In this document: one piece after another, positions 20,298-50,146 of the stretch | How the letters are laid out: the number at the start of each line of letters is the position of its first letter | How positions within the stretch are numbered: the stretch's first letter is position 1 | From: Lingula anatina | Taxonomy: Eukaryota; Animalia; Brachiopoda | Assembly: GCA_051362555.1 (NCBI GenBank) | Contig: CM120641.1 | Coordinates: 22,320,001-22,384,000, forward strand | Direction: 5' to 3' | DNA: 64,000 nt | Translations under genes and position numbers: made by a program | The notes under the pieces: generated by a model | Database searches by the model: none | The model's input: the letters and a program-made list of their open reading frames with translations, nothing else | What the model was told of the DNA's origin: nothing

Positions 20298-20455
20298 CTA
20301 TGTGATGTACATTTCAGCCAGGAGGGCAGGGATAGGGAGATCAGCCATGGTCTTCACCATAGACATGCGTTGTACATGAAGTAATCCTGCCTGGTGGAGG
20401 TCTTGCAGGATCTGGATAATGCTAAAGTAGCGAGGACTGTTTGGTCCATATTTGT
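20298..20455 (-). CDS. Gene A exon 9 (LBD H10-H12, AF-2, stop)
   Basis: ttcag acceptor; (N)KYGPNSPRYFSIIQILQDLHQAGLLHVQRMSMVKTMADLPIPALLAEMYIT*. Confidence 0.9.
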
Positions 20456-22642
20456 CTGAAAACAGAAAAGAATATAAAATAGCACACTTAACCAAGCCTT
20501 ATACTAAGTATCCAATTTTTTTTAAATGACTAAATGGCAAAAAAAAATTAAATAAATAAGTATTAAAAAAAAAAAAAAAACACTGATCTAGGAATCCTAC
20601 CAGCACTCATTGCACAGAATACTTTAGGCATGTATCTCTAGACTGCACCTGACATATAGAATGGGACTGAAATAGCAATTATCCGAGTCAAGCATGCACA
20701 AGCCTGGCATATTGGAACATGGCCCTAATGATTTGCCAGGGGAATTTATAATTCCTCACCTATCTTAGTTTAAAACTGACAAATAAGATTAGATCTAAGT
20801 GCTCAATTCCCCAAACTGGGGGCTCTGTGAGGAATGGGACACCACATAAGTATTACAACGATGTTCAAAATGAAGACATTTATAAAATAACCAAATCATA
20901 TCAAAAGCATTGACTGACCCAGTTAAAAATAAACTGCACCAAATAATCTAGGGTTGACTTACTTGTCATGTATGCCTTGAAGGCATTGCTGACCTTGGCA
21001 GACAACTGATCAATTTTCCCTGGTTCCTTCAGCTCTAGGTCAGCTGCAACAAAAGAATACAATGGGCTACACTAAGCATACAGTCAATCAATCATTAGAT
21101 TACCATACTACATTATATTTGTTTTTTTTTTGGGCATGAGACCTCGAGTTACATTGAGGCAAATGACTACAAAAACACTTATAAAAACAATCATCCTACG
21201 TAGATAAGTATGCAAATATACTTATTGATTAAGAGTGCCACTGTTAAAATCAAAGAGTCTAATTCATTGTCTAAGATAAATGGTGGGGAAAGAGAAAGCA
21301 TAATTACATGTCTGGAGCAGTATAAGTGCACACAGCATCGGGTACTCTATGTCATCCATATCCATGGACTTCAGCCTCTCTCCAAAGCTGACCATGTGTT
21401 CCTGGACGTGAGCAAACGGCTGGGAGAACGCCTCCAAGATGCGCTTCTGCATGGGCACACTCAGGTTGTAGAAGTTGGGGGCTTTGGTCTGAAGGTCAAA
21501 CATCTGTGACATCATGGCCAGGGACATAATGTAGTTAGTGTGACGCACCAAACAAATCTGATCTTCCATAGGAATGGCACGAAAACCTGCAATAAAAGTA
21601 GTCTCATGAGAAATGCTGCAGTAATAACTTGTGAGGCTTTAATGATTTTTCAATCAGCGACAATACTGTGAAGAAAGTCAACATCACACCACTTAAGTGT
21701 ATATACGCATGTGTCAGCTTTTCAATTATTCCATTTCAATTTTGTATTGACCTAACTGGTAAGTGTCTACAACTGCAAATTAAGTACTCTGTGGTAGGCA
21801 TTATGTGGTATACATACAGTCTCCTAAGAAACGGGAAGATAACTTCCAATCCCATTATTACCTGGAATCTTTTTGCCGAACTTAATAAGACAATGGACAT
21901 TCTTGAAGATCTCTGCAGTCGTCAGCTTCCACACCCCCTCTTTGTCTAAGGAATATGGATCCTCTGGTTCCTGGGCATCAGGGGCCTGAAAACAAGGAAT
22001 GAAGACAGATGGAATAAAACCATAATAAGACTATTACATCTAATGATTCTCATGTAACTTGTCACAGATTGGTAAATTTAAGGCAAGGGAAGACTTCCGG
22101 ACTAAACAGCTATACTAAAAAGCAAGAAAGAATCCCAACAGGCTAAATGAATTTTAGCTTCTTGATATCTTACCAAGTCTGTGGTTAACAACACAAAACA
22201 GAAACAGTTCACTTTTAAGACATTTTTTTCTGTACAAACAATAAGTACTGCATTTCCTGACCTCTAGAATATGTTTCAAGTGACAAATGATTTAAACAGC
22301 AACAACAAACATACCTTTTGTTTGATAGGTAATAGATGTTTATAAGCCTCGCAGATGTCAGCAGTAAAGCTGGCCATCTCATCAGTGTAGATGCCATCAT
22401 TTTCATCCTTGGGTGAGAAGCTGGAGGAGTATGCACAAGTATAGAAATCTGGCGGCTCTTGCTTCACTGTAACTTGTGGCGCCATCTGGTTGGCAGTGGG
22501 TGTCATTTGCTTCCCAACAGCTATGGCAGATGATTTACAAGGTACTGCAGAGTCACTGACACTTCTCTTAGTGCCTCCAGCACTAGGCACATATGAGGGA
22601 TAAGGCTGTTTCTGCTGCTGCTGATGTTGCTGATGTTGTTGT

Positions 22643-22674
<32 letters not shown>

Positions 22675-25600
22675 CCTTTGAGGCTGTTGAAGCTGATGCT
22701 GTGGCTGTGGGAGCTGCTGGCGTTCCTGTGACAGATGCTGTTGCTGCTGTGGCATTTGGTTATTGTATTGATAGCTGTTACTGGGCAGCACACCTGACCT
22801 ACGCAGTGGTGCCTCGCTGGCTGACACAGTACGCCTCCCAGTCACTGCTGATGGTGTAGTGGTGTTATAGGTCAGGTCAGAGGGTGTTGAAGTGAATGAC
22901 GAATATGAAGGCAGCTGGGGTGGGAGGGGATAGTCCAGGTAAGGGGGTAGGTCAGGGAAGTCCAGCTCGGACAAGTCAGGCTGTGACACATATTTTGGCT
23001 CCGCTTTAAGGCGCATGATGTCCTGTATGATATTATTGGCTGGCATGGAGGACAGATCTGGGTCAGAGGAGGCAGAAGTGAGGCTGGTGGTGGTGGTCTC
23101 CTCACTGGTCACAGGTTCCTTCTTCACTTTGTCCTGTTCCTGCTGGATCTGAAGGATCTTGTGTTTGATGTAGTTGGGCTGACGGCCAATTCTGCTGCCT
23201 GGAATACAGCAGAATATCAGTTAGACAATAACAAAAGCAATATCGTACAGTGCAGTATTAACTTGAAATGGAAGAAACCTATTAAGTCTAAGACTGCGTG
23301 AGATGCAGCAAAATTGGCAATTCCCATGTCTTACATAAAACACATCACAAGGGGTGGAAAGATTAGTATTAATATGCATTTCCTGTAATATGCCAAGAGT
23401 GCAATAATGAGACGGTTCATATTGCTAGACATTTATATCTTAGATCATACGTCACATAAGAGTGTTGGGGATGGAAAGGTTTTGAAAATACACCAAGGAA
23501 TCTAAAGCTCACTATCACATTTTCCTATCACATTCATTCAACCAGTGCAACTTATCAGCACACAGCTCCACTGACCACAAATGATGCTCTTATATCAAAT
23601 CTGCTTTGATTTTTGTTGTTTTGTCAGTGGGGAATAAAATAAATGTACTAAATGCAGGGCTTCTTTAATATGTATTCTTTAAAACATACTTCATGAATTG
23701 TGGAATAAACTTTTGATATAAAAAGAAATCTACTGTAGCTTGCACTCATGCACAAGTCACAGAAGTTCACAGAATCTAATTCAATATAATTCACAATGTT
23801 CCTGCTGTCGTCCAGTCTTGACCACAGTGGTCCGTTCTGGACAGCCACATGGCTGCAGGGCTGCAAATGTCCCACTAAGCCCTACTCACCCTCCTCTCGT
23901 TTTATCTAAGTCTATACAAACTAATAACTTTAAATATACAAAACACAACGGGTAATGCACTCCACGAGTGTACAAGATGTATAAGAAACAGGGTTTGTAT
24001 TTTTTTCTAGGTTGAATTATCCCAATGTAATTTTACTCTCCATAACTGTATTTCCTCTTTGCCTGCCCAGCCATGCTTTATTTATGGGGCCCTCTATCAA
24101 ATAGGTAACAATACGGCTAAAGGAAAGATGATCACAACACATACAGACAATCAAAGTTTGCCAGTTCATTAGGATCTCATCTATGTTAAAAGCATATAGC
24201 TGTTTCTGGATTAAGCTTGATCACTAAACTTGATCACTAAATACCAATTCTCCATGAGGCGATGACTGTGCTGCAGAGTGCATACCTGGTACACCCCTGA
24301 AAAAAACCCTAGAGACCCCCCCCTTCCCCTTTTACTCCAAATATACCAACCTGCACCAGATTTATTGTACTTTACACCTTGTTAAGTATAGATATTTATC
24401 CTGGTACAATGGCCAGCAAGGAGTATAAAGATCTTATAAATCCATCATTCCATATGGGAATGCACTTTCTCTTTAGGCTGCTTGCTAATATTGATGAGAA
24501 AGTATGCATGAACCTGTGCTGGCATGAGGCCAACATACAGAATTCTACTTAAACTGGCATTTGATTTGATTCAGCACTTCCTGGTGTACTGAGCTAGACT
24601 AAAACCAAGTTAATTTTTCAGCACCAAAATAATTAATAAAAATTGACAAATAAAACCTGAAAATGCGTCATCAAAAACAGTTGCAGAGAGAACACACTTC
24701 CAAATTCTCATCAAGTGAACAAACCCAAATAGCTTTAAGGCACACATTCACCAAAAAAAAAAGAATAAAAATTATCTAGCCCCACTTGCTATAAATCTGC
24801 CTGCTCTGCATAAATGGTATGTACCAAGGCATTTTGTGGTAAATTCTGTATTTTACAGTGAAGAAAATTTTCACTTTTTCCGGTGCATTTGTACATGTTT
24901 GTTCCATTTGTCCAGATAATAGGTTTCACACCTTTAACAAATAATATCCTCTAATCAAATTTCTCAGCAAGCAGCCCAGATCAGCCTCTGGAGGTATTCC
25001 GAGCTGTTTACGTCAAAATATAAAGCTCATAATCTGCATGTTTGTTGCAAAAGAAGTACATAATGATAGAAAAGAGTTCCAAAGCATCACAAAAGTAGTA
25101 GGAGATTTCCTGGCAAAGGCTGGAAATAGGGATTTACAGCCATTTTTAAACACCGATTCTCTGCTGATTTCTGATTAAAACAAGTCAAATATCACTCCTA
25201 CAGGGTGATTAAACCTTCAGGAGTTCACAAGTAGCATAAAACAAACCTTCCATCTCTGTATAAATCAACATTAGAGCAGATTTGGACAATTTGGTTAATC
25301 ATTCTTGGTAAAATATTCTTAACGCCATTAAAAGAAATGGTTCTTTTTTTTTTTTTTTTAACACAGAGAACATGTTAATGGTACCTGTGCCTGAGCTGCT
25401 CGCGTAGCTGGCTTGGACTGTATTAGCCCTGGATTAATCTGTTTTTATTCCTGTGACTATTGTCACCTGTATCATTATTTCCAACAACATACAATTTCTA
25501 TTGTTACAAACCTTCAAGAAAACAGGCTCCACACTGTGCAAAATGCACTGTAAAAATATCATGTGGAGAAACCCATGATATCAAATTTTCTCCATTTATG

Positions 25601-28600
25601 CCAAATCTCAGGAGTGCTTCTAGGAAATGATGATGCAATCTAGTGCCAGCCTGTAACTTCACACTACCTTCAAGCTGTATTTATAGTTATTTATTCATCA
25701 ATAACTCCTTATTATACAACATAGGGGTTCTTTCAAAAGCAGATAATTACACAACAGTAAGTTGTTTGTCTCACATTTCACTTTAACAAAGTTCCACGTA
25801 GTTCTTGCTTCTCAATTTTGCCCTCTCTCTCTCATTTATTAAAAAAAATCCTTATACATTTAGCACTGCAAGGCAAGCAAACAACCAAGAAAAAAAAAGC
25901 TTGAGTACTTATTGACATTACCAGACTGCTAGGCAAAATACAATGACACCATAATTTTAGTCCACAGGTGTCATGGCTTTATAAAGCACTCACCTTCTAA
26001 AGACATGCCAACATCTAGGCATTTCTTATAACGGCAGTAGCGGCATGTGTTCCTAGTAGTTTCAGTGATAGGACAATTGCCACCCTGTTCACAGTAATAA
26101 TCCAATCCATTCTTTTCCTTCACACTGCGGCGGAAAAAGCCCTGCAAATTTCAAACATGTATAATAACTTGTTTATTTTTCCTAAAAACTGCCATAATAG
26201 TCAAATACTTAGTTTATAGATAAGGTGACTGGATTAAGTGCTTTTTTGAAGAAAAAAAATGTGGAGAGAAATCAACATAACATTTATTGATTTCATGTTT
26301 ACTTCTTACAGAAATTCAAAGATCTGCAGACCAAAAAGCATGGAATGGTTCTTAAGAACCCTATTTCCATGACAACCAAGGCAATGTATATCAGTTTATG
26401 TAAGCAAGCTGTTACCTTACAACCCTCACATGTCACTGCACCAAAGTGAAAGCCAGAGGCAGGGGCCTTGCACACTGAACAAGGGAACTTGGAGAAAAGC
26501 TCATGAACAGATGGTGCTTTCTGTTCCTTGGATCCTGAAATGATAAAGTTCAAGAACATGTTCAAGGCATATACACACATAAATGCATTTTTCAAAATCA
26601 ACCGGAAATGCACAAGTCCAAAAAGATGGAAAGGCATATACATGTTATTGTATTATTAATTAAATCTACAAGGAGTATCTTTTTTACAGATCTATATTAT
26701 TTTCAATATCAACTTTGCATTTGTCCATTTGATCATAATAGAAATCTGGTGAACTTATTTTAAGCATATGGTCTGGTGATGTACTGGGTCAGGTCTACAG
26801 AAGACAGTGTAACACAGAGAGTATGAGAGACACCTGGTGATGTACTGGGTCAGGTCTACAGAAGACAGTGTAACACAGAGAGTACGAGAGACACCTGGTG
26901 ATGTACTGGGTCAGGTCTACAGAAGACAGTGTGCCACAGAGAGTATGAGGCACCTGGTGATGTACTGGGTCAGGTCTACAGAAGACAGTGTAACTAACAC
27001 CCCATTTCCATAGATTAGATCGACCTACTTTAGATCGACCTAACTCCCTGGGGGTTCACGCTAAATAGCTATCATCCGGGCGGACACGAAAGTTAATTAC
27101 CCTCTTACAGCTTGTAGTAGGCGGGAGGGACATTTAATCGGATTATCTGGAAGTAATCTAGTGAGACTCCCCGCGGGGATAGATCGATCTAAAATCTATG
27201 GGAATAGAGCCAAAGAGTATGAGAGACACCTGGTGATGTACTGGCTCAGGCCTACAGAAGACGGTGTAACACAGAGAGTATGAGAGGCACCTGGTGATGT
27301 ACTGGGTCAGGTCTACAGAAGACAGTGTAACACAGAGAGTGTGAGAGGCACCTGGTGATGTACTGGGTCAGGTCTACAGAAGACAGTATAATACAGAGAG
27401 TATGAGAGGCACCTGGTGATGTGCTGGGTCGGGTCTTCAGAAGACAGTGTAATACAGAGAGTATGAGAGGCACCTGGTGATGTACTAGGTCAGGTCTACA
27501 GAAGACAGTGTAACACAGAGAGTGTGAGAGACACCTGGTGATGTACTGGGTCAGGTCTACAGAAGACAGTGTAATACAGAGAGTATGAGAGGCACCTGGT
27601 GATGTACTAGGTCGGGTCTTATGAAGACAGTGTAATACAGAGAGTATGAGAGACACCTGGTGATGTGTTGGGTCAGGTCTACAGAAGACAGTGTAATATA
27701 GAGAGTATGAGAGGCACCTGGTGATGAATTGGTTGGGGTCTTCAAAAGACAGTGTTATACAGAGATAGGGAACATGCTGACACATCACTTCTGAATCAGC
27801 AATTCAATGATTCAGGAAGTAATTCATTCACCTCGGCAATGCTCATGCTTCACAGATTTTCTATAGCTAAAATAATTAATTTTGAAAATATAAAAATTTT
27901 GCAAACATTACTTGTAGTTGATGGGGAAAAAAAGAGATGGAAATTCTTAAAATACACTTGTCTCAAATAACGAGTGTGTGCATGTGCCAAACGTGTAATT
28001 ATGTATATCTTACTTCAAAAATTCCCATGTACCTTCTCTTCACTATAAACAGTTTGATCTTAAGAAGTAGGGGAACTCTTACATTACACCTGTTGCACAT
28101 TTATTCAGCCTTTTATTTTCTTATCAAGATTAATTCAAACACACTAGACACCGTATTAGGCAGAAACCATTCTGTGTTATTTAGAAGTTCCATTTTGTTC
28201 CTTTATCATATACATTCAAACAATCTTTTACCCAAAGAAATCATAACAATGTCTGCTTCAAGCGAAACATGCACTGCTGAGTATGCCATAACATGTTAAG
28301 CCAAGCATAGAACTTGAAAAAGAGTCGTTTCAACTTCAGCTGCAGCATGCTAAAATAGATTGTGAAATACATTTCTACCTTATCAAATATTCACAATATC
28401 CATTCTATATGAATCTATTATTACACTGTTCCAACCTAGTCCCTGTGATTGCATAAAGAAATCATAATAGACATATGCTATGCTGAAGGTATGTGTATCA
28501 ATGTGACAGAAGAGTTGTGGAAATAAAAATACTTATATGGGAATACTTATGGAAAGTTATATGCGTAAAAAAAATTAACAATGCTCAGATATAAAGTAGA

Positions 28601-35908: not shown

Positions 35909-35959
<51 letters not shown>

Positions 35960-38870
35960 TTTCACTTTTTTAAAATTGCTTCTTCTGGAATTTTTTTGAT
36001 GAAAGAACAGAAATGCTTTAACTGTGAGGAAATACCACAAAAACATAGCGTAAATAACTGTCACATGAAAACAAAAACAGCACAATCACTTATCAACCAA
36101 ATGTATTTGTGATCTCTTATACAGTCTTGCTGGCAGTTCCAGGATTTTGCCAAGGGGATATCATACCAGAATAAAAATATGTTTAGCAAAGTCAAAGACA
36201 TGAGTTGACAGTTATTTTACCATCATAATATGTAGGGCACAGAGTGGAAAATGTGCTTGGTTGGTCTTTTTTTTTTTTCTCAGAGGGAGTACTTCCTAAC
36301 TAGCTAAGGATGGGACATGCCATTCCCCCATCTGCCACTGACCCTATGTAATACATGAACCACAGGAACTCTTTATTTATGCTACAACTATTGTTTGCAA
36401 TAATCAGGCATTTGGTTTTCTAAAAGCAAAGCATTTACCTAATACATAAAAAACAGGTGATAACTATATAATATGGAAACTGATATCAAATTTCTCAAAT
36501 TAAAGAAACAGATCATATGAAAGAATGACATATTTGATGCACATGATCATATCCAATACTGTATGACGGTGTACCAGTATATACATGCCATAATCTTTAC
36601 CTTTAAAAATAAGATAATGGCATTATGGTCCATTCAGAGAAGTCAAAACAGATGGAATTAGGTCAGGGTCAAATACAGGTACAGAGTCATATTCTAGTAT
36701 GTTGCAAGGCTGAGACTATTTTGGTACATCACTAACATTGGTTATGTCCTTATGCTTAAGTAAACTTAAAGTAATTGGTAGAATCATTCTGCTTTTTGTT
36801 TCTCTCTCGTTCTCTCTAAGGGGGTGAGGGTAAGTTTTCTTTAGCTGGATTGACCAGCAATTATGTTAAGGTTTATCTTGATATGTTCAACTTTTAAAGA
36901 GCATATTTATATAACTACCCTCTGAGATTTCTGAGATTATTTGATACCTTAATTTAAAGAGGGGTAGGGGGAGAGACTTCTGAACTCTGGTCTATCGTGT
37001 ATTTTCTCTTTCCACCCTGTTATGCTGGATACAATGCAGGACTGTCTTCCTTGATGCTGTAGCATTTCATTAGATAGTCCAGAGAGGTGAGTAATATGGT
37101 TTACTAACTATGGACTAAAGTTAACCTAAGGAAGCCTTAATTGTCATCTATTTTATAAAGATCATAGTCACTTTTCCCAGGAGATTTTATGCACAAGTCC
37201 ATATGTCTTATCACAGAGATCACATAGTAAGACAGTACATTAAAAAAAACAAATAAATTTAATAGAGAGATTTCCTTTTTCACATCAGAAAAAAAATACC
37301 TATTTTCAATGATAAATATTGACACAGCCACTAACACCAGAATGTGCAGTTTTACTTTTATTTTATAACCCCTACAGTTTATCTGTACCTCTGCTGACCA
37401 CTTTATATACCAATATTTTAGAAAACTGATAAGAAATATTATATAATAATGCAGACATAATATTAAAGGATCAAAAATTAAATTAGGGCCTAAGGCACTG
37501 CTTGATACTCTATATACATCACTTCAAAAAATCATCCAAGAAATACAAAATGGCAAACAAAAAATAAAGATATGTTAATATACTATAATTAAGATGCTGC
37601 TCATCATCCATGTGAAAACTGAAATTCACACATTGTTACATACATGTGGCCAGATAGAGCTAACCCTTATTGCTTTCAATTGTGAAGGAAGACAATAAAA
37701 TCCAGAGGGTCACAGAAATCCTTTACAGGCCCTTGTTTAACAATACTTATAGCATACATTTGCAATCAAAACCCCTGCTAGGCGGATATTGATATACAAG
37801 AAAGAACATTCCAATAAATAAAGCATAACATAAAGCAAAGCATATAATATTCTGTTTGTCTTCTATTTACTCAAACTGGTAATGTATGATCACATACCAC
37901 TTCAAATTCCTCCAGGTATAAATATGTTTTTCCTTGGTTAATATCATTAGTGCTTCTTCCTCAATAATGAATTTGTAAGGAAGTAATTTATACTTCAGAG
38001 GAAGCCACCTGAGAGTAGCCACTAAGTGACAACATAAACAATATGGATTTGTATGTACAATAGCATTTCAATATAAGCATCTATATCTACATACAGACAT
38101 TTGTAAACCAAAATTAAGCAGTTAAGCTGTTAGCTGACTACTATTACCACCCAGCTGGCACACACCTTACTTAACCCCACTATGTTGCCTTTTCTCAATC
38201 ACAGAAAATGATGAAAACAAGACTAAAAGGACAACAAACCAGTTGCATTATCTGCGTGAAGTTTACATACCTTACACGCTTCACATGTGATTGCTCCACA
38301 GTGGAAGCCAGAGGAGGTTTCCCCACACACACTGCAGGGGAGAAGCTTCAGGCTTTTCAATCCCATGTCTGAGCCATTTCCCAGTGGGGAGCAGATAGGT
38401 GGGGAGGGTTGTGTGGACGTGGTAGATGTTGGGCTCTGTGGTTCCTCTTTTACTAGATACTGAGGTGACACTGTATCTATGAGCCCATTGGAGTTGTGTG
38501 CAAGGGGAGGGGGACGACTGTGGTCGATTGGTTCGACGACTCCTGCATTCTGTCTGTGAGCGACTGGTGGCTGTGGATGAGAGTTGTCCAAGTCGGTCAA
38601 ATCAGTAACAGTAGAAGGCTCCCCTAAGCCATACGACTGAAGGAATCCGTTGTTGCTGTAGAAATCGTCATCAAAAAGTCCATAATCGTCGTAATCTCCG
38701 TAACTGCCTGGAGGGATGTTTGTTCCTCCGGTGAAATTGTTCATGTTTATATCTAGTCCTTGGTTTGGCAATGTGGCAGAAGAAGTGTTACTTGTTTGGT
38801 AACTCTGACTGTGACTCTGGGGCTGTGGACGCCATGTTGTTGTTAGTTTGTTTTCTTCATAGTGCAACAT
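20298..38870 (-). CDS. Gene A: nuclear receptor with two DNA-binding domains (2DBD-NR), 9 coding exons, 845 aa
   Basis: Exons 38271-38870, 32387-32531, 26416-26534, 25994-26141, 22315-23198, 21862-21985, 21308-21586, 20963-21043 and 20298-20455 total 2538 nt; all GT-AG and phase-consistent. DBD1 P-box CEACKK, DBD2 P-box CEGCKG, T-box-like [12 protein letters not shown] signature FGKKIPGF..EDQI.L, AF-2 LLAEMY. Confidence 0.95.
20963..21043 (-). CDS. Gene A exon 8 (LBD H9), 81 nt
   Basis: tgcag acceptor, gtaagt donor; (S)DLELKEPGKIDQLSAKVSNAFKAYMT; same length as the equivalent gene B exon. Confidence 0.9.
21308..21586 (-). CDS. Gene A exon 7 (LBD H4-H8)
   Basis: (G)FRAIPMEDQICLVRH...IEYPMLCALILLQT; AG acceptor, gtaatt donor. 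Confidence 0.92.
21862..21985 (-). CDS. Gene A exon 6 (LBD H3)
   Basis: APDAQEPEDPYSLDKEGVWKLTTAEIFKNVHCLIKFGKKIP(G); ttttcag acceptor, gtaat donor. Confidence 0.9.
22315..23198 (-). CDS. Gene A exon 5 (CTE/T-box, long Ser/Pro/Gln-rich hinge, LBD H1)
   Basis: (G)[16 protein letters not shown]... continues into ORF 22276..23127; gtatgt donor after LPIKQK. Confidence 0.92.
22610..22752 (-). repeat. Coding CAG/CAA repeat (poly-Gln tract) in the gene A hinge
   Basis: QQQQHLSQERQQLPQPQHQLQQPQRQQQQQQQQQQQQQHQQHQQQQKQ. Confidence 0.9.
25994..26141 (-). CDS. Gene A exon 4 (DBD2 second zinc finger)
   Basis: [49 protein letters not shown](G); tgcag acceptor, gtgagt donor. Confidence 0.97.
26416..26534 (-). 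CDS. Gene A exon 3 (inter-DBD linker and DBD2 first zinc finger)
   Basis: (G)[39 protein letters not shown]; tttcag acceptor, gtaac donor. Confidence 0.97.
26772..27770. repeat. 61-bp minisatellite, ~13 units, interrupted by a MITE (gene A intron 2)
   Basis: Unit CACCTGGTGATGTACTGGGTCAGGTCTACAGAAGACAGTGTAACACAGAGAGTATGAGAG(A/G); CACCTG anchors at 26831, 26892, 26951, 27227, 27288, 27349 ... 27715. Confidence 0.97.
26998..27211. mobile_element. PIF/Harbinger (Tourist)-like MITE, 214 bp, inserted in the minisatellite
   Basis: Imperfect TIRs CACCCCATTTCCATAGATT / AATCTATGGGAATAGAGCC; near-identical copy at 39885..40099; flanks TAA/AAA. Confidence 0.88.
31350..31468. repeat. Degenerate ~31-35 bp tandem repeat (~4 copies)
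   Basis: Recurrent AGAC(T/C)(A/G)TTCTCATTATTTT motif. Confidence 0.7.
32387..32531 (-). CDS. Gene A exon 2 (DBD1 second zinc finger)
   Basis: KFFIRSCQGESNKYVCTKNNNCEIMRATRTQCQRCRYEKCLAVGMVPK(G); T-rich ctag acceptor, gtaagt donor. Confidence 0.97.
35911..35958. repeat. (TTA)16 microsatellite
   Basis: Perfect run; explains poly-Ile ORF 35903..36085. Confidence 0.95.
38271..38870 (-). CDS. Gene A first coding exon (A/B domain and DBD1 first zinc finger)
   Basis: MLHYEENK...LLPCSVCGETSSGFHCGAITCEACK then gtatgt donor; 600 nt. The start ATG is the first in the ORF; not experimentally verified. Confidence 0.92.
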
Positions 38871-39280
38871 TACACGCAGTAAGCCGCTTTTGGCGTTCTA
38901 AATAAATCTACAAACCGTTTTGCTATTGAAAATATCAACATACAGTCAATTTCTTCAGTGCAATACCTTTGCGAATACCTCGATCCCTGGAGCTTGTTGA
39001 GAGAGTCCGAAATTCTTCTGCGCTGCGCTCTGACCCAGAAAACACACAGGATCAACGAGTACCTAGCAATACTGGCTTTGGAGATATCCGGAATCAATAT
39101 ATATTATTGATACCTACTTCACATCAAATAACCCTTCATACAATGCTCTTAGGCAACTTAGGGTATGAAGAAATGAGAGAATATCTCACAACTCTTCTTT
39201 CCACGTTCCTAAAATCGGGTGACAGGAAAATGAAAAGTTTTTAGGTTTCCGTAACAATCTTTATTTTACCATTGCCCTGT

Positions 39281-39460
39281 CACGTGAGCACTACAGTTGT
39301 GGACGTGAATCGTCCTTGGCCTTTGAAACACGAATGAGGTAGAAGCTGTATATACTTCCGAGACCACGACGGTGAAACTCCAGCGCTATATATAACGTGC
39401 GCTTTGTTGACACTTTCAAATGTTCGACGTTTTGTACTGTATACCCCATAATTGACGTAA
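39281..39460 (-). promoter_or_regulatory. Putative gene A core promoter: TATA-like box, bZIP site, E-box
   Basis: TATATATAA at 39387..39395, TTGACGTAA at 39452..39460, CACGTG at 39281..39286, in a CpG-richer patch ~0.5 kb upstream of the ATG. Confidence 0.4.
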
Positions 39461-39884
39461 TTCATTGTCTTTGAAGGGGGGGGGGGATAAATTCAGGGTA
39501 ACAAAAACAAGATTTTTTTATACCCGTATATTTTTATGTAATTGTGTTATTATTATTTATTAAATATAGTAAGATGTAAATTCCGTGACCCGATGATTGT
39601 ACCTCAGGTGTGAAAGTGTGTTATCAATAAAAATTCATTCATATGGTGAAAAGCAGTGAGGGAAAACTGCCCTCCACGATCTTCCATCAAGGAGTTCCAG
39701 TTAAAACTTGTTTCTATGAATGATTTACTGTAGATACCACCCAAACATATCTGGCTAATTAAATTTTTTTTAAAAGTTGTGGATTAATTTTTCAGACGAG
39801 GCATTTTTTCTCTAAACATTGCCATGGTCATGGCTGAACACACAGTACATGAATACGAATTACATGAAAAGACCAAAAGTACTA

Positions 39885-40099
39885 CACCCCATTTCCATAG
39901 ATTAGATCGACCTACTTTAGATCGACCTAACTCCCTGGGGGTTCACGCTAAATAGCTGTCAGCCGGGTGGACACGAAAGTTAATTACCCCCTTACAGCTT
40001 GTAGTAGGCGGGACGGACATTTAAGTCGGATTATCTGAAAGTAATCTAGTGAGACTACCCGCGGGGATTGATCGATCTAAAATCTATGGGAATAGAGCC
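39885..40099. mobile_element. PIF/Harbinger-like MITE, 215 bp, with 3-bp TSD CTA
   Basis: Copy of 26998..27211; CTA at both 39882..39884 and 40100..40102. Confidence 0.9.
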
Positions 40100-40101
40100 C
40101 T

Positions 40102-40353
40102 AGTTACAACACGAGTCATCCACTGCATGTGACATACAATAGTGAAATTATATCGAGGTGCAGCCGAGATACAATTTGCTTTTGTATGTCACATACAGTG
40201 GACGAAATATTAAATAGTTGCAACTGACTTATGCCATGGCTGGCGCTTCAAACAATAGGATAAATGCACCGAAGCATATGAAAATACAGACAAGCCTGCA
40301 TGTGAAATACAAGCACAATTATCCTATTGTTAGAAGTGCCATGGTATAAGTTA
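40102..40353. mobile_element. Two adjacent short foldback (MITE-like) elements
   Basis: 40102..40225: TCCACTGCATGTGACATACAA / TTGTATGTCACATACAGTGGA with AGTTACAAC / GTTGCAACT ends. 40225..40353: ACTTATGCCATGGC..AACAATAGGATAA / TTATCCTATTGTT..GCCATGGTATAAGT. Confidence 0.65.
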
Positions 40354-40796
40354 CTCTTATTTTGTGCAAATGAATGGCAAGGAAAACTTGGCCTACCAGT
40401 ACTGTAGTTTCGTTAATGATTGAAAACCCCTAATTTTTTACGCAAATTAATAATGTACTTGGATGTCTCTTCACACAAACACACTATGTGTGTGTGTATA
40501 TATGTGTGTGTATATATATATATATATATGTCTGGGATACTGGGTAACAGTTGAAAGTCTGTCAATATATTCCCATGGGTTGGATTACAATGGGGGTGCT
40601 TTTATGTGATAGGGGGTGTATTTGTCTTATTATACCACAAATTTTTGTTTCCAAACATTGCTGTGTATTTTAAACCTTTTTAATTCTTAGCCAAAAATTA
40701 CACTTAAACAACACTTTAATCTGGGGCACAGATATACCAGCCTGTTTTGCAGCTGTATATTATGGAAAAGATAGTATTGTCATATATGTATATATG

Positions 40797-40801
<5 letters not shown>

Positions 40802-40853
<52 letters not shown>

Positions 40854-40859
40854 TTTTTT
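40802..40859. repeat. (TA)n followed by poly-T
   Basis: Read directly. Confidence 0.95.
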
Positions 40860-41462
40860 GTCATATCGGGGATCATTCACGGCACACACACTAGAGAAAA
40901 ACAAAAATTGCTCTTTGTTGCAAATTTTGATGGGTGTTGAAAATGGATTGTTGTGTGTTACTATCACGTCGGTTTTCAACTTCAGTACAAAGTATTGTCC
41001 CCCATGTACATGAACTATACATATCGTTCAATTTTGGAATTTTAAATATCTGAAGTACACTCTGCTTTTCTTAAAACAACAATGTATTATGACCCAGTTG
41101 TGTTTAGTGTCCTCCATTCAATTGTTTGTGGCGTAAAGAGTGGAGATTTCCACTGATAACATAATGAGCTGGTCACGTGAATATAAAATGAGACCAATTA
41201 GCTATATCCAGTCCCCACATTTTGGCATGTAACTCATGAAAAACTACTTAATGTCATCGCTGTTTAACTGCGGATTCAGGATGGCAGGGAGCTTTCCCAA
41301 ATCTGCTAAGTGAAGTGCACTCTTTCCTGATAATCCTTTTTATGTGGTTAATGTTACATTTTCCAAAATGTATGAATACGAAGCAAAAAACAACGCATAT
41401 TCTAAGTGGAAAGCATGCTCATAAGAGGGGCCACGCATATATATATATATATATTCAATTTT

Positions 41463-41855
41463 TGGTCCCCTCTTGGAATTTGACTAGCTGAATCATAGTT
41501 TTAAACCATTCCAAATGGCACCGGTTGCCGTCTTACGTACCAAATTTTTTCGGGGCCCGAACCCCACGCCAAGTGGGGGGAGGGGGGTCGACTTCCCATC
41601 TGGGGACCCCCCCCTTCAAATAATCCTGGATCGGCCCCTCAAGACTGTTAGGAATTGTTCCTTGTAACTTTCCTTTAAGATGCAAGAAAATAGAATAATA
41701 CGTAGTATCAATAAAGGAATACATATACAGGGGCGGATCGAGAATTATTTGAAGGGGGGGACTGCTGATGCAAAGCCGGCCCTCCCCCCCCCCCCCCCCC
41801 AACAGTGTAGAACTATGATTTAACTAGTCAAAATTCTAATTTCAGGAGGGGACCA
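41463..41855. mobile_element. Two inverted copies of an AGGGGCGGATCC-terminated MITE-like family (41463..41639 and 41729..41855)
   Basis: CCCCCCCTTCAAATAATCCTGGATCGGCCCCT is the near reverse complement of AGGGGCGGATCGAGAATTATTTGAAGGGGGGG; TTTGACTAGCTGAATCATAGTT pairs with AACTATGATTTAACTAGTCAAA. Related fragments at ~50676 and ~55751..55797. Confidence 0.7.
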
Positions 41856-41909
41856 TTGGTGTGATTTTTTTTTTTTTTTTTTTGGAAAGCGAAGGGGGTG
41901 TCAGGGTCC

Positions 41910-42150
41910 CCCTGCGTCTGTCATCCCGACGTCGTTGCTATCGTCATCACCATGTACTTTAACCAATAATGTGATAATTAGTGGAAAACCATTTTATCTT
42001 TTGGCTTGAAACTTACAGAACTGATAAATATTCGTAATATGCAGGTCAAGTTAAAAAAATCAGCATGATGGGGCCATTTTCTTAAAAGTTATGCTGTTTT
42101 TTTTTTCATTTTTTTTTCAGTATACATGCAACACCGATAACACTATAAAT
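41910..42150 (+). mobile_element. Degenerate fragment of the HINE family at 15095..16929, opposite orientation
   Basis: CCTGCGTCTGTC...GCAGGTCAAGTT..AAAATCAGCATG..TTATGCTGTTT matches the reverse complement of ~16690..16887. Confidence 0.75.
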
Positions 42151-42556
42151 GGAAAAATATTTTACATTGAACTCTCATGGTCCCGAAACTAAATTCTTAT
42201 TGTCCATGTTACCTGTTGTTCATGATTAAAATTTTGTGTTGATTGACTGTGCTATTATAAGCATTATTTATTATTACATCAAAATTGACAAAATGACATT
42301 TTCTGCATCTTTATTTTCTGCTTTTTGTCGTGTACTTTTGACAACTTTGCTGGCTTGTTTTCAAACATACCGTTTTTTTTTTTTAATGTGTTTTTTCCTG
42401 CACATTTAGGCATGACCCATTTAAAATATCATGGTAAATACACTTGCTGAAAGTGAAAATAGAAGCTAGATGATAGTTCTCTGAAGTAGATACAGAAAAT
42501 TGGTTGGTGGTGTTACAGCAACAAACTGTTTATCCCAAATTCGGTTCATCTTCCTA

Positions 42557-43540: not shown

Positions 43541-43786
43541 TCACAGTGTAGTTGAATATAAATTAACTTTCATTTCCTCATTAAATAATCTTTTGAAGAA
43601 AAGCTTCTTGCTCAGATAGGAATTTAAAAATTAGATGTCCTTCTTTTGCGAACCAATACCAGACACAATGAAGCTTTTGATGTAAAAGAACAACTATGAT
43701 TACCTTTATATTTTCCCCTCTAAGAAAACAAGGCAGTTTTAATTGCCCCACCTGATAAAAATATAAGCAAATATCTTTCAAATCTA

Positions 43787-43962
43787 TTATCCATTTTCTA
43801 TAAACATCTCTTCATACAAAGGAGATGGGTGGAATTCAATATCTTCTCTCTTTTTATGCATGTCTTTTATAATCTGCTGATGTTGTATACTGATCAATCG
43901 CAGGACTGGAAGCTGCAGAAGAATGAGTCCATACCGCTGTAGACTGTTCTCTGGAGACATCT
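43787..43962 (-). CDS. Gene B last exon (H10-H12, AF-2, stop)
   Basis: Pyrimidine-rich tttag acceptor; (K)[57 protein letters not shown]. Confidence 0.88.
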
Positions 43963-46900
43963 CTAAACAGAGGAAGGAAAGGGTTATTGCACCAGGAATA
44001 AGCTAAGTGATCTAACAATGTAAAGGTCACCTGAATATATTCTATAAATGAAAACACAGTTACTGCAACTGAAAACAGCATGGGTAAAATGACAAACCAT
44101 TTCCTTTGCTAGAAAAATATCATAATGAAAATTTTGTTAATTCCCGTAGTAATCATAAGTCCCCAGAAAGTGGTGTTCTCCTTTAACAGCAATGCTCTCC
44201 ATCAACATATCTCCCCAGCAGTTTTAGAGTTTCATAATATAGTACTGGTACTTACTGAACAAATACTCATAAAGTCCTGCTGAAATCTTTTCTTGTATAT
44301 CATTTATCTTTTTCTCATTTTCATACTCTCCTTCATCTACAATATTAAAGGAAAGGGCGCCATGAGAACAAAGAAATCACTAAAAAAGTATTTTTATCAA
44401 AATGGCCATACATATAAAATGAAGACAATAAACACCATTTCAACAGCAACAAGCTTAAGGCCCTAACAGCAGTATTATATAAATGCTCAGAAGCACAGAC
44501 ATGCTTTGTATAATCTTAATTTTGCATTTGATGCATGTATTGTTAAAATATATATTCTTTAAAACATCAAAGCTAAATAGCTAGCTACCTGAAGAAAATA
44601 ACTGCAGTGCAGTGAAGAACCCCATCTCCTCATTATTCAAATTAAGCAGCTGAATTGCACTCCCTGCAGCATGAAAGTGGTCAACTATGGGTTGGAACTG
44701 AGGGAACAACATCAGGATTTTTTGTTCAATGCGCTTTGGAAAATGAAAGTAACAGTATTCCTTGCTGACGCTATCATATAAAGTTCCAAGTAATGTATGT
44801 ACCAGCTGGTAAATAGAGTTTTGGACCAGACAAATTTGATCCTCAATCGACAGTTCCTTGAAGTCTGAAACAAACAAATAAATATATAAATAAGAGATAT
44901 ATAAAATGGAGAATTGACAATAAATATTTCAAAAAATATACCTGGAAATGAAGAACATACGCTTACTGCTAGGATTTGGAAATGAAGCAGCTGTATTGGA
45001 TATAAAGATCTAAGGAAGTTCTAACAATGTTCTTAAGCAGATTTAGGTCCTGGGCCTGCATAGCCCAATTGCTTGTTTTATTGAAATGAAGACAAGCACA
45101 AAGGTGTGTCATATTTGAGAAGCAAAAACTTTGAGTAAAAAAGTTAATTGAAGTTTAAGCTAAATGTTATTTATGTGTTTGGAACCAAGAAACAAAACAC
45201 ATCAGATGCAGCATTTTCACACATGACAGATTGATCTAAAAATTACACAAAATTCATTTAATTTGCCATTCATTAAATTCAGCAGAGGAAATGAAAAGTG
45301 AGTGGATGTTTCTTGGATACTGCATGTGGTATCATCTTACATGGCAGCTTCTTTGCAAAGGATAGGACACATTTTGCACATTTTTCAAAATTTTCCATCA
45401 TCAGCTGCCATAATTCATCAATTCCCATGTCAGGCAGGTCCACTGGCTGAAAAAAAATTAGCTTTAAGTCGTGTGATTTCACAGTGAGTAACCATTCATT
45501 TGGTGTCAAACATTTAACTAATCATAGTAAGAGATCAATGGTAAGATACAGTAGAGGAATAAGGGGCATAACCACCTTGTGGATATGAATCTAGAGCTGA
45601 GCAGGCACGTCATTAGGTCTCTAGTGACTATGAATAGCAATAATAACTTAAATAGGATTTCTACATTAAACTTCACAACAAATGCTTAATAATTGCACAC
45701 TAGATTTACCCCTCAGCTATAAATCATAGAAAGCCTTAGAATTAAATTAACATTTGTCAACTTAATTTAATGTTTTCGGTAATCCAGGAAGGGAAGCTAT
45801 TTCTTGTAATTACAACAGCAGCCTCAACAGGAGCAGACATAAGGAAGGCATTGAGTATCTACGGTTGGAAATTATGTTTACAATAAGTAAAACTATCATA
45901 GTTTACAGAAATACACCTTAAGAAGCTCTAGATCTGTACAATGCAACAATAAACACAACTGAGAAACTCACTAATTCATTTCTTTGCAACCTCTTCAGTT
46001 CTTCAAAAGCCTCACTCAAAACTTGAACCAATTCCTCTAAGGCAGAATCTTCAATCACAACTGGTTCCTCTTCATCTTCCTGGGGTTCCTTGATTAGCAA
46101 AGATGCTAGATCTTCCTTCGGTGCCACTGGTTCTACATCACCTTCCTTAGGTTCCTTGTCTAGAACAGCTGTTGTAGCAGATGATGTAGATGGCGCCAGT
46201 GACACAGATGTAGTTTGCTCCAGTGATGTTGTGCTGACAGGCACTGGGGACGGATGCGAGGGTGGTTTCAGACTCTGGTGGTCTACTGCATGATGCATCT
46301 GCTTCAGTTCTAACATTGCTGCATGCTTAAATGCATTTGGTTGACGACCAATTCTACTACCTGGAACATGCAGGAAGACCTCGTCTTCAGTCTGTATTAT
46401 AGTCATCTTTTTTTTTCCACTTGAGTATAGATTAACCTGGTAACTACAACAGGCACATTATTACTTTAACTGGTAATTATACTGCCCAGATGGCTCTACT
46501 AGAAGAGTGCTTGTCCCCAGTGCACCATCTCATTGGTTTGTTTCCGATGGACGGCTGATCTCAAAGACCACCATAAAAATTATACCTGCTATCGCCACAC
46601 ATACAGTCTCTTTATATGATAAAATGGAAAAATATCATCTTTTTGAAAACTTACCATCAACTTTCATGCCAACACTAAGACACTTTTTATAACGACAGTA
46701 TTTGCAGATGTTTCTTGTTGTTTCTGTGATGGAACACTGCTGACGTTTGCTACAAGAGTAGTAGTTGTCTCTCTCACGTACTGTTCGCCTAAAAAAGCCC
46801 TGAAAGAAGAAAGAATCTACAAATGTATTCTATATACGGGAATTCCTTCTATGAAGTGCTGAAAGCAAATTCCTGGCACTTCAATTTCACTTATGAGTGA

Positions 46901-49900
46901 TGTTTGGATTTCCAGTAAAATAAAGAACAACTTTCTCCAACAGCAGTCTTACTTAAGAATTACTTTGCAATACAGATGACTCGATGTTAAAGGCCCTCTC
47001 CATGAATTTATCTGCCAAAATAAATTTATGTCAAGAAAAGGGCAATTATTTCCTGCTCAGAAATCATTACTCAACCCCTTCCCCCTACAAGCTTCACTTA
47101 AAAAGAGTTTATGTCCCTTCTTTACACACACCCATATCATGCATAATTTGAAGGCAAAGTTCAGGATCTCTTTGTCATATTAGCCCCAAGTAGCAAGTAG
47201 TAATAAACCCATGAAAACTGACAAAATCCGCAAAGGCCATCTGGAATTTTGTATAAAGATTGTATAAAAATGTTCCATTTCCATATCAAAGTTAACTAAA
47301 TTGGGGAGAAAGAGCTTTGGAATGATATGCTTTGGGTCTTTCTATAAAGCGGACACTTAATCTGCCAAGTTGGCCTCTTACTGCTCAAATTTGACTGTTT
47401 TTACATCCTTGAAAGAAGAAAGTAGATGGGGCTATCAGCAAAGACTTGGACAGATTCAGGCAATAGCTATATCATTGATGTATAACTTTCTCCCAAATAA
47501 ATTAAGTATTTTTTACAATACTCACTTTACATCCTTCACAGGTGACAGCTCCAAAGTGAAATCCTGATGAAGGTGCCCCACACACACGGCACGGAATATT
47601 GGATATGTCTGCTTCATTTCCTGAGGAGGAGCCTAGGAAAACCATTCAGGTTTATGTTAGATGTGTGTGTGCATGCGTGGATGTGTCCAATACTTTTACT
47701 TTAGTAGTGTGGGGCAAGTAACCATACTTTTTCTAAAACTTATCATAAGCAAAGAGCATTATATAAAATCATATAACACCTAATAAGAGAAAATTTCAAA
47801 ATATAACAAATTAAAAGTTTTTACCATGTTTAGTCATGCCTATTGCAATGCACTTCCTGAAACGACAGTATTGGCAAACTGTCCTCGTTTCTTTGGAAAC
47901 CTGGCACTGGCCTTTCTTTAGACAAGAATATTTCTTGGAATTCTGTTTAAGACTACGCAAATAGAACTTCTGAAATAGTGAAAAAAAAATCCAAACATCA
48001 CTACCATTACTACCTCTTTTTATGAATGTTGATGACATGTACAATATCCTTCAGTACACCTTGAATACAAAATTGGCTATGGAAACACACATATAACACT
48101 GTACTTTGTATGTGAAAAAAATCTCACCTTGCATGCTTCACAAACAAAAGCTCCACAATAGAATCCAGATGACAGGTCCCCGCAGACTTGGCAATGCTTT
48201 CTTTCCCTGCCCTGCTCTGCCTTGGCATTTTCTGTATTGCAACTTACAACCCTATATGGGTCCAAAGACAACCTCTCCCTTGATGAGGAAGAGAACTTCT
48301 GGAGACAAGATGAATTGCAACTGTCCATTTTACTATCATCTTCACTGCAAGTGAAACTTGAGCTATCACTAAGTTCATAAGCTCCACTTAATAGCTTTTT
48401 TGAGTCTTCCCGTTTAGAAATTCTTGTATTAGTTTCTTGATATATTAGTTCATTTGACCTTGTATTTTGTCTTGAGAAAATCTCATGTTGTGAGGTGGAT
48501 CTTGGAAAAAGAGATTTTTGGTTATCATAAAAGCCACTGCTAACCATGGGGACCCTGTCAGTGTTTAGAGGTGAGTACTGCAAGAACTGGAATGATGAAT
48601 CATCAGAAGCAAGATGGCTTCCGATTGGTATACAAGAAGTTTCCTCAGAGTTCAAAGTTCGATCTTTATGCCAGGTCAAAAGATTTGTATTTGTATCTTC
48701 AAAAGAGACAGCACTATAAATTCCAGCATTGTCAACAAAATGATGTGAGTCTGAATAATAGTGCCCTGAAGACGGGGCATAAGATGCTTCTGTGCTTGGA
48801 AAAACTGCATGCTGTTGAGAACGCGAGCGGACATGATCTGAACTATCTGTGCTAATACGAACATCTTTATTGCTGTCTACTGGTAAGGTCTTGCTCAAAT
48901 TTTGGTTGCATTGATGCTTCACATTTGGGTGATTATGCATTTTTGTCTTTACATCTTCTGATTTTCTTTTGTTGAGACTTGCCAACCTTGGAGAATGAGT
49001 AGATACAGTGTTTTGGTTGCTTAACTTGTCATCTGTAAAATAGAATTACAGTACTCTTGTATCCAACCTTTAAAGATTCAAAATTTTATAATTTCAAATT
49101 AAAACAACCTTCCCTCTTTGCTCCTTTTTTCATTAAACATTGAAGCTAATCATAAGAGCAATATGAACAGAAAGGCACAAAGGACTTTTCAGTCCTTTAA
49201 ACTATATTTAGGAATAGAAATTAAATCACATACTGGACACTCATGTACAGATGGATGAGCTCCTATATTTTTCCACATCCCAGTGACTTCCTCAGAGAAC
49301 CTAGCTAATGCATTGTCATTGATGTCAACTGACAAATGGAAAGGCCACCAGGACTCATAGCATCTGCATGTTTGTGTCCAGTACAGGACTTAAGTCAGGC
49401 CCGTAGCCAGGAGGGGTTCAGGGGGTTCGAAAGAACCACCCTTTTTGCTAGGAAAAGGTCCACTCTGGGTAAAATTTGATCTAGGTACATGGAGTTTTTA
49501 TGGAAAAGGTCCACTTTTTCAGAAAAAGAACCCCCCTTTTGAAATTGCTGGCTACGGGCCTGTAAGTGCCATTATTTAATCATTTCAAACTTCAAATGGA
49601 TGAATCAAAACTTTGATAATTTACTTATTGTTAATCTATATACCTCTAATTTTAGAATTTTCATGTACTACCTGTAGTTAAACTGTCATTTTCACGTGCA
49701 CTATGATGGTCAGCTGGAGGTATTTCTTTCTCAGGTCTTCTTTTCCTCAGGTCTGCAGTTTTCAATTGGACTCTTTCAGTTTTCTTTGACATAGTCTGTA
49801 TCTGTTTCCAACACTCATTATTTCCATTGTTTAGAATTGGCTTGTTAGAGAAACCTTCGATAAGATTTTGCCGGCCATTCTTTTGCTTGCTATATCCTGG

Positions 49901-50146
49901 TACTCCATCTTTGCATGATGCCTTCACATAGCCACATAAAGGACACTCTCCAGTTACTGGCCTCAGCTCCAATATATTGGATGTCTTTAACAAGTAAATC
50001 AGTTCTAAAAGATCTAGGTCCCGTGTATGCAAAGACAAATCTGTTTGAACCCATGTCTCTTGCAGACCATACTTTGAGGAAAATCCAGCTGTCACACTGG
50101 CATCCACAGACTGCTGAATACTGGTGGAGTTCATCCTAGCAGACAT
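43787..50146 (-). CDS. Gene B: second 2DBD nuclear receptor, 10 coding exons, 934 aa
   Basis: Exons 49672-50146, 48128-49032, 47825-47969, 47526-47632, 46655-46799, 45972-46360, 45341-45446, 44589-44864, 44256-44336 and 43787-43962 total 2805 nt, in frame. P-boxes CEACKK and [31 protein letters not shown]-2 LYEEMF. The first exon is the least certain. Confidence 0.93.
44256..44336 (-). CDS. Gene B 81-nt LBD H9 exon
   Basis: (D)[26 protein letters not shown]; gtag acceptor, gtaagt donor. Confidence 0.88.
44589..44864 (-). CDS. Gene B LBD H4-H8 exon
   Basis: (Y)[16 protein letters not shown]...[16 protein letters not shown]. Confidence 0.92.
45341..45446 (-). CDS. Gene B LBD H3 exon
   Basis: [35 protein letters not shown]; tttcag acceptor, gtaag donor. 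Confidence 0.92.
45972..46360 (-). CDS. Gene B CTE/hinge/H1 exon
   Basis: (G)[20 protein letters not shown]...[14 protein letters not shown]; gtgagt donor. Confidence 0.92.
46655..46799 (-). CDS. Gene B DBD2 second zinc finger exon
   Basis: [48 protein letters not shown](G). Confidence 0.97.
47526..47632 (-). CDS. Gene B linker and DBD2 first zinc finger exon
   Basis: (G)[35 protein letters not shown]; gtgagt donor; a second in-frame acceptor would start the exon at 47620. Confidence 0.95.
47825..47969 (-). CDS. Gene B DBD1 second zinc finger exon
   Basis: [48 protein letters not shown](G). Confidence 0.97.
48128..49032 (-). CDS. Gene B A/B domain and DBD1 first zinc finger exon
   Basis: ttttacag acceptor, open frame through ...[23 protein letters not shown], gtgaga donor. 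Confidence 0.92.
49396..49562. mobile_element. 167-bp MITE with perfect 15-bp TIRs and TAAGT flanking duplication (gene B intron)
   Basis: CAGGCCCGTAGCCAG ... CTGGCTACGGGCCTG; TAAGT at 49391..49395 and 49563..49567. Confidence 0.9.
49672..50146 (-). CDS. Gene B probable first coding exon (N-terminal A/B region)
   Basis: ORF 49661..50146 has an in-frame TGA just before the ATG; a phase-1 donor (gtagta) matches the phase of the next exon. No homology support. Confidence 0.65.

What the first reader, a model, noticed from the sequence alone, without database searches (positions are those of the whole stretch)
20298..50146. Tandem cluster of two complete, divergent 2DBD nuclear receptors
Seen: two head-to-tail genes ~4.9 kb apart (gene B stop 43787, gene A ATG 38870), each A/B-DBD-DBD-hinge-LBD, with eight shared intron positions and phases and identical 145-nt and 81-nt exons, yet no evident similarity in their N-termini or hinges beyond the CTE. 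Established: 2DBD-NRs with a CEACKK first P-box were described from Schistosoma mansoni and other mainly spiralian animals; they are orphans with unknown response elements. Inference: an old tandem duplication kept in linkage, possibly co-regulated or heterodimerising with four DBDs. I cannot confirm that this linkage is unreported.
Basis: partly seen in the sequence, partly recalled or inferred. Interest (0 to 1): 0.85.

Follow-up and report, generated by a model that had tools for sequence, protein, structure and literature searches.

The report
Ancient tandem pair of double-DBD receptors

Summary
[quoted passage not shown] RNA reads join all 8 introns of gene A, including DBD1 to DBD2. Gene B is transcribed, but its joints were not displayed. 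Both are known: their DBDs match Lingula anatina La2DBD-NRA2 (A) and La2DBD-NRA1 (B) of Wu & LoVerde 2023, whose accessions are two apart. I found no paper on their linkage or age. The copies are 60% identical in the DBDs and 25% in the LBD. Trees place A with rotifer and acanthocephalan receptors (93/98) and B with nemertean, annelid, mollusc and flatworm ones (95/99). An A+B clade is rejected on the full data (AU 0.0002-0.03) but not in 4 of 7 subsets. So the duplication is likely old, perhaps basal spiralian. Each gene has its own transcript and likely works as a homodimer; heterodimer and co-regulation are untested. No listed contig bridges the repeat-rich spacer. The scan noted a 2DBD receptor before on other DNA (sea urchin).

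The parts
38271..38870 (-). Gene A (La2DBD-NRA2) coding exon 1: A/B region and first finger of DBD1 (P-box EACKK, split by intron); transcript 5' end near 39057
   Evidence: read ends at 39057 in X15 and X13
32387..32531 (-). Gene A exon 2 (145 nt): second half of DBD1
   Evidence: joint to exon 1 in 3 of 3 RNA runs
26416..26534 (-). Gene A exon 3: inter-DBD linker with rotifer-type motif, first finger of DBD2 (P-box EGCKG)
   Evidence: joint from exon 2 in 2 of 3 RNA runs
25994..26141 (-). Gene A exon 4 (148 nt): second half of DBD2
22315..23198 (-). Gene A exon 5: G-box RIGRQP, long hinge with poly-Q, LBD helix 1
21862..21985 (-). Gene A exon 6: LBD helix 3
21308..21586 (-). Gene A exon 7: LBD Ti signature to helix 8
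20963..21043 (-). Gene A exon 8 (81 nt): LBD helix 9
20298..20455 (-). Gene A last coding exon: helices 10-12, AF-2 core, stop; 3' UTR runs past 19500
39058..42500 (.). Spacer between B's 3' UTR and A's start site, largely high-copy repeats with short inverted arms
   Evidence: depth spikes in DNA runs; inverted repeats
43787..43962 (-). Gene B (La2DBD-NRA1) last coding exon: helices 10-12, AF-2 core, stop; 3' UTR to about 42500-43000
44256..44336 (-). Gene B 81-nt exon: LBD helix 9
   Evidence: predicted splice sites
44589..44864 (-). Gene B main LBD exon
45341..45446 (-). Gene B 106-nt exon: LBD helix 3
   Evidence: predicted splice sites
45972..46360 (-). Gene B exon: G-box RIGRQP, short hinge, LBD helix 1
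46655..46799 (-). Gene B exon: second half of DBD2
47526..47632 (-). Gene B exon: linker (nemertean/flatworm-type motif) and first finger of DBD2; an in-frame alternative acceptor lies 12 nt inside
47825..47969 (-). Gene B 145-nt exon: second half of DBD1
48128..49032 (-). Gene B exon 2: A/B region and first finger of DBD1
49672..50146 (-). Gene B predicted first coding exon (158 codons, no family match); RNA reaches about 50600

Best explanation
These are two separately transcribed Lingula 2DBD-NRA nuclear receptor genes, likely born by a tandem duplication before brachiopods split from nemerteans, molluscs and annelids, and each likely works as its own homodimeric transcription factor. Shown: gene structures; splicing of A; separate 5' end of A; identity with La2DBD-NRA2 and NRA1; same P-box pair (EACKK, EGCKG) and G-box in both; linkers of 21 vs 17 aa; LBDs 25% identical; Ti, E50, R93-type and AF-2 residues in both. 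Inferred from trees: A is the orthologue of rotifer/acanthocephalan receptors (about 0.55) and B of the nemertean, annelid, mollusc and flatworm ones; A and B are not sisters (about 0.8). Inferred from known receptor chemistry, untested here: DBD2 with its G-box anchors on an AGGTCA-like half-site with a 5' extension, and DBD1 reads a second, variant half-site. LBD homodimerisation, shown for the flatworm relatives, brings four DBDs together. The two paralogues would read similar half-sites at different spacings and respond to different ligands or cofactors.
For: DBD rows of La2DBD-NRA1/2 match B/A by eye, and the A LBD row matches across exon joints. A vs B identity is 60% (DBD) and 25% (LBD), against B vs Lineus 63/41 and A vs Lineus 57/30. 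The 7 best DBD hits of A are rotifer or rotifer-like; those of B are led by two nemerteans and an annelid-type row. LG+F+G4 tree, 42 rows x 398 columns: A+syndermatans 92.7/98, B group 95.4/99. C20-PMSF quick tree: 96 and 88. AU for A+B: 0.0076, 0.0295, 0.0002 and 0.003 under full C20 on fixed topologies. The forced A+B stem has length about 0. In 24 simulations with A and B as sisters, A+rotifers appeared 1 time and the B group without A 4 times, never above 85 aLRT. A linker motif occurs in 30 of 150 NRA proteins: gene A, 26 named syndermatans and 3 unnamed rows. Homodimer, not RXR heterodimer, for Sm2DBDalpha (PMC1810520 section 8).
Against: A+B is not rejected with LBD only (0.19), without rotifers (0.057), DBD1 only (0.076) or DBD2 only (0.21). 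LBD alone does not join A to rotifers. A as sister to all non-rotifer spiralian rows gives AU 0.084 and 0.049. In DBD2, A's closest row is B (70%), and 4 DBD columns are nearly private to A+B. The linker motif was written after seeing the alignment. Reciprocal loss needs several losses. No other brachiopod or phoronid NRA was sampled. EMSAs with AGGTCA repeats were reported negative for the schistosome DBDs. Gene B joints were not displayed.
Confidence: 0.7

Rival explanations
1. The duplication happened within the brachiopod lineage, and gene A then evolved fast and is pulled towards rotifers by long-branch attraction. It would still be old (LBD 25% identical) but lineage-specific, as Wu & LoVerde propose for most of the family.
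For: A+B not rejected in 4 of 7 subsets. A's DBD2 is nearest to B; a few residues are nearly private to the pair. Tandem position is typical of lineage duplicates; the Ptychodera pair P0024/P0154 (86% DBD identity) is one. No A-type gene turned up in sampled nemerteans, annelids or molluscs.
Against: Full-data AU 0.0002-0.03; zero-length stem; end branches of A and B are similar and not flagged as long; simulation gives A+rotifers in 1 of 24; linker motif shared with syndermatans only.
Confidence: 0.17
2. The pair is kept together because it is a functional unit: shared enhancers drive both, and A and B form a heterodimer with four DBDs.
For: Head-to-tail linkage within 5 kb despite deep divergence; both transcripts occur in the same bulk RNA runs X13 and X16; both keep class I dimer residues. 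Accession order suggests a 2DBD cluster in Ptychodera too.
Against: A has its own start site; A is about 8-16 times deeper than B; the spacer is mostly high-copy repeats; helix 10 of B has the common LLLxLPxLR-like form and that of A has drifted; schistosome paralogues lie on different chromosomes (PMC1810520 passages).
Confidence: 0.2
3. The adjacency is an assembly join across repeats, or a late chance juxtaposition.
For: No listed contig from X3 or X5 bridges 39681-42681.
Against: No N in the window; RefSeq accessions XP_013400322 and XP_013400324 are two apart (I did not determine whether that annotation rests on the same assembly); two paralogues meeting head-to-tail by chance is unlikely.
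Confidence: 0.04

Closest known systems
La2DBD-NRA2 (XP_013400322) and La2DBD-NRA1 (XP_013400324), Lingula anatina; Wu & LoVerde 2023, PMC10497141 (text parts 1-5 of 7, S2 part 1 of 3, supplement search hits; figures not seen)
   Same: The same genes. The A rows match letter for letter by eye; the B rows match except one Lys in a stretch the authors trim in other rows too.
   Different: The text has 0 hits for synteny, chromosome or intron and does not discuss the pair's linkage or age. An LBD row for NRA1 (gene B) did not turn up in S3 or S5. Their Fig. 2 tree, which I could not see, may already place NRA2 near rotifers.
Syndermatan 2DBD-NRA (Brachionus, Adineta, Rotaria, Pomphorhynchus)
   Same: P-box pair; linker motif shared with gene A; sister to gene A in both models.
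   Different: Much shorter proteins, G-box ends in S rather than P, LBD about 15% identical to A.
Nemertean 2DBD-NRA (Lineus P0022, Tubulanus P0178), mollusc NRA, flatworm Sm2DBD-gamma group
   Same: Group with gene B; B-type linker motif in nemerteans and flatworms; Lineus LBD 41% identical to B.
   Different: No A-type partner found among the sampled proteins. Schistosome paralogues are unlinked.
Single-DBD NR1-type receptors (ROR, Rev-erb, RAR) bound to direct repeats or extended half-sites
   Same: Each DBD folds like these (model of rotifer P0010: Foldseek hits to RAR, TR4 and ROR DBDs at E 1.4e-8 to 5.6e-8); DBD2 P-box and G-box are alike.
   Different: Two DBDs in one chain and an EACKK P-box. 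None of the 49 listed PDB matches covers both DBDs (TM by query about 0.4).

Membership tests
2DBD-NR (Wu & LoVerde) | [quoted passage not shown] | tested here: met
   for A all joints seen in RNA; for B predicted plus exon-wise RNA depth
2DBD-NR | Four C4 fingers, C-X2-C-X13-C-X2-C and C-X5-C-X9-C-X2-C | tested here: met
2DBD-NRA | P-P module EACKK-EGCKG | tested here: met
   both genes; definition
2DBD-NRA | 17-22 residues between the DBDs | tested here: met
   21 (A) and 17 (B)
2DBD-NRA | G-box RxGRQ(P/S) with His at the fifth position after it | tested here: met
   definition
2DBD-NRA | Ti signature, AF-2 core, class I residues E50 and KR93 | tested here: met
   read from alignments (E50/R93 placed by eye against the RXR row of S5)
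2DBD-NRA | Falls in the NRA clade, apart from NRB | tested here: met
   100/100
2DBD-NRA | Homodimer through the LBD, no RXR heterodimer | not testable with these tools
   the spliced LBDs could not be given to the complex tool as a reference; known only for flatworm relatives
2DBD-NRB | LPCKS-EGCKK or EACKS-EGCKG module, KxGR(P/H) G-box | tested here: not met
   Lingula's NRB is a different protein, P0113
Conserved (microsyntenic) gene cluster | Orthologues of both genes adjacent in other species | not testable with these tools
   no animal genomes searchable; the only hint is accession order in Ptychodera, whose NRA copies are not A/B orthologues

The most novel reading that the evidence does not exclude
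Lingula still carries, side by side, both products of a duplication at the base of Spiralia. Rotifers and acanthocephalans kept the A copy, while flatworms, molluscs, annelids and nemerteans kept the B copy, so 'the' spiralian 2DBD-NRA hides two paralogues. With the apparent NRA-NRB-NRA run in Ptychodera, local clustering may be the ancestral state of the whole two-DBD family.
Probability: 0.4. Interest if true: 0.5.

Novelty: already known. Interest (0 to 1): 0.33.

Why it matters
The genes and their architecture are catalogued, so this is no new kind of protein. If the deep age holds, it corrects orthology in an orphan receptor family that includes flatworm reproduction regulators and parasite drug-target candidates. 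It would add a case of reciprocal paralogue loss between gnathiferans and other spiralians. It also gives a natural pair with identical P-boxes but different linkers and LBDs, well suited to the open question of how two DBDs in one chain read DNA.

Tried and rejected
No whole genome was held, so no genome-wide background or search for further copies. No RNA holder was listed by the index; raw-read runs of the same species label were laid instead. A homologue search with the two LBD exons found 0 of 264 candidates. One with the DBD1 exons found 3 of 11, including an unnamed 151-aa protein 88% identical to A exon 2. The Lingula NRA proteins themselves appeared in no search. Metagenome scans: none of 178 stretches; 1 of 80 loci was a 2DBD-NRA fragment. 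Pfam on 147 flanking ORFs of 55 aa or more gave only a transglutaminase exon, so no third receptor is visible in the window. Atlas search of B's first exon: no usable hit. AlphaFold2 of a rotifer tandem-DBD fragment gave pLDDT 88.9 but pTM 0.59, so no support for a fixed DBD-DBD arrangement without DNA. Recent duplication or gene conversion: only one 71-nt coding stretch aligns at DNA level, 77%, and the DBD2 tree does not join A and B. AGGTCA excess (56 vs 28.8 expected) is only rank 48 of 4096 hexamers under an order-3 model; not used. The careful C20 tree did not finish. No complex prediction was run. Literature searches with no paper on linkage or age in their listings.

Full report
Observation. 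A six-frame scan finds four nuclear-receptor DBDs on the minus strand, each split over two exons. From the sequence I built two models with GT-AG introns and no internal stops. Gene A has 9 exons, 38870-20298, 845 aa; gene B has 10 exons, 50146-43787, 934 aa. Phases agree at all eight shared introns; seven positions are exact and the fifth is approximate. BLAST aligns the DBD block (51% over 220 aa including its tail) and the LBD (E 4e-23), and nothing in the N-termini. Pfam supports the domains exon by exon. Among 147 flanking ORFs only a transglutaminase exon matched.

Expression and linkage. Raw RNA reads span 8 of 8 introns of gene A in X12 and X15 and 7 of 8 in X18; the DBD1-DBD2 joint has 37, 29 and 0 reads. 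Read ends at 39057 mark A's own 5' end in X15 and X13. Gene B has stranded depth on its exons: 31 and 4.7 in a fully exonic bin, against 242 and 78 for A exon 1 in the same two runs. Depth in the repeat-free part of the spacer is near zero, so the genes are separate transcripts. B's joints were not among the 15 shown of 137. DNA contigs of X5 tile gene B and A exon 1, but none listed bridges the repeat-rich 39681-42681. The linkage rests on this window and on accessions two apart.

Identity. Both proteins have the EACKK-EGCKG module, 17-22-residue linkers, the RIGRQP G-box with its downstream His, and Ti and AF-2 motifs that define 2DBD-NRA in Wu & LoVerde 2023 (PMC10497141; text parts 1-5 of 7 read). 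Its S2 rows La2DBD-NRA2 and La2DBD-NRA1 match genes A and B, and the S3 and S5 rows match A's LBD (compared by eye). The window is therefore Lingula anatina DNA and the genes are XP_013400322 and XP_013400324. The paper says only that both fall in group A and has no hit for synteny, chromosome or intron. I could not see its tree figure, and read S1 and S3-S5 only as search hits. Nine library searches listed no paper on linkage or age (listings only for papers other than the two read).

Age. I collected relatives and named 30 of them by look-up. A and B are 60% identical in the DBD block and 25% in the LBD; B is closer to the nemertean Lineus (63/41) than to A. For the main tree I chose 42 rows to span phyla, out of about 150 NRA proteins plus NRB outgroups. 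I left out near-duplicates, fragments and rows lacking two DBDs or an LBD; three unnamed rows were labelled by resemblance. LG+F+G4 gives A+rotifers/acanthocephalans 92.7/98, B+nemerteans+annelids+molluscs+flatworms 95.4/99, and all spiralian NRA 97.2/98. A first 46-row quick tree and the C20-PMSF quick tree agree. A+B monophyly is rejected at AU 0.0076, 0.0295 and 0.0002-0.003 (topologies fixed). It is also rejected in 3 subsets (both DBDs 0.018; no NRB 0.001; no rotifers, NRB or flatworms 0.021). It is not rejected in 4 (LBD 0.19; no rotifers 0.057; DBD1 0.076; DBD2 0.21). The forced A+B stem has zero length. A as sister to all non-rotifer spiralian rows stays borderline (0.084; 0.049). In 24 simulations with A and B as sisters, A joined rotifers once and the B group excluded A four times, never above 85 aLRT. 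A post hoc linker motif is in 30 of 150 NRA proteins (A, 26 named syndermatans, 3 unnamed). A second motif is in 32 (B, two nemerteans, two molluscs, 27 flatworm-type rows); 88 have neither. The A-rotifer signal comes from the DBDs, not the LBD.

Introns do not date the pair. An unrelated 2DBD-NRA fragment, L001, has the same intron after DBD1, in the DBD2 P-box and after DBD2, and lacks the one in the DBD1 P-box. The two DBD2 exons form a module flanked by phase-1 introns in both genes. This fits an origin of the second DBD by exon duplication (inference; the wording was prompted by note e1-7392220).

Mechanism. Shown: two separate transcripts, the same recognition boxes, different linkers, hinges and A/B regions, and LBDs as far apart as between phyla. 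Both LBDs keep AF-2 and class I dimer residues; helix 10 is conventional in B and drifted in A. From papers: Sm2DBDalpha homodimerises through its LBD and does not bind RXR, and EMSAs on AGGTCA repeats were negative (PMC1810520, passages and section 8). Unsaturated fatty acids were proposed in silico as ligands of an Echinococcus member, and planarian nhr-1 acts in reproductive maturation (both as cited). A model of a rotifer tandem-DBD fragment folds each DBD well but gives pTM 0.59. Inferred from recalled receptor-DNA structures: DBD2 plus G-box anchors on an extended half-site, DBD1 adds a second variant half-site, and the linker sets the spacing. Homodimers of each paralogue are the most likely working form; an A-B heterodimer is possible and untested (about 0.2).

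Verdict. The finding is real and correctly described, but both genes are named members of a known family. The unreported parts are the linkage and the likely basal-spiralian age with reciprocal loss. These are of moderate specialist interest and need wider taxon sampling. Interest 0.33.

Noticed in passing
P0024, P0071, P0154/P0018/P0155, P0156/P0047 (Ptychodera flava): Accessions run XP_070577168 (NRA)...170 (NRB)...173-175 (NRA), with another NRA-type at ...101-102, all with a longest contig of 41,862,543 bases: likely an NRA-NRB-NRA cluster (accession order only). Hemichordates get 0 hits in the 2023 paper's text; Saccoglossus and Glandiceps also have 2DBD-type receptors.
   Followed up: partly
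PMC10497141 Table 6: NRA and NRB accessions are close in Pecten (84 apart), Gigantopelta (110) and Bulinus (91), hinting that the two groups share a linkage group in molluscs.
   Followed up: no
P0002: Unnamed 151-aa Logan protein, 88% identical to gene A exon 2 and reading on into apparent intron: an A-type gene in a related animal.
   Followed up: partly
window 63290-63649 (+): Exon of a transglutaminase (Transglut_N, E 3e-14), the only other Pfam match among the flanking ORFs scanned.
   Followed up: no
window 26773-27765: 61-bp tandem arrays (3.7 and 9 copies) in gene A intron 2, interrupted at about 27000-27200 by a very high-copy short element that also appears near 39900-40100.
   Followed up: no
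window 16368-16752: 160-bp tandem repeat, 2.4 copies.
   Followed up: no
window 22612-22686 (-): Poly-Q tract (CAG/CAA) in the hinge of gene A, absent from gene B.
   Followed up: no
whole window: AGGTCA occurs 56 times against 28.8 expected from dinucleotide shuffles; rank 48 of 4096 under an order-3 model; no genome background available.
   Followed up: partly
P0039 (Argonauta hians): Two-DBD receptor whose first P-box is unusual (RSCRA), a possibly divergent cephalopod 2DBD receptor.
   Followed up: no
L001:232-909: Genomic fragment of a 2DBD-NRA gene in a metagenome contig, with EACKK-EACKG boxes and three introns shared with both Lingula genes.
   Followed up: yes
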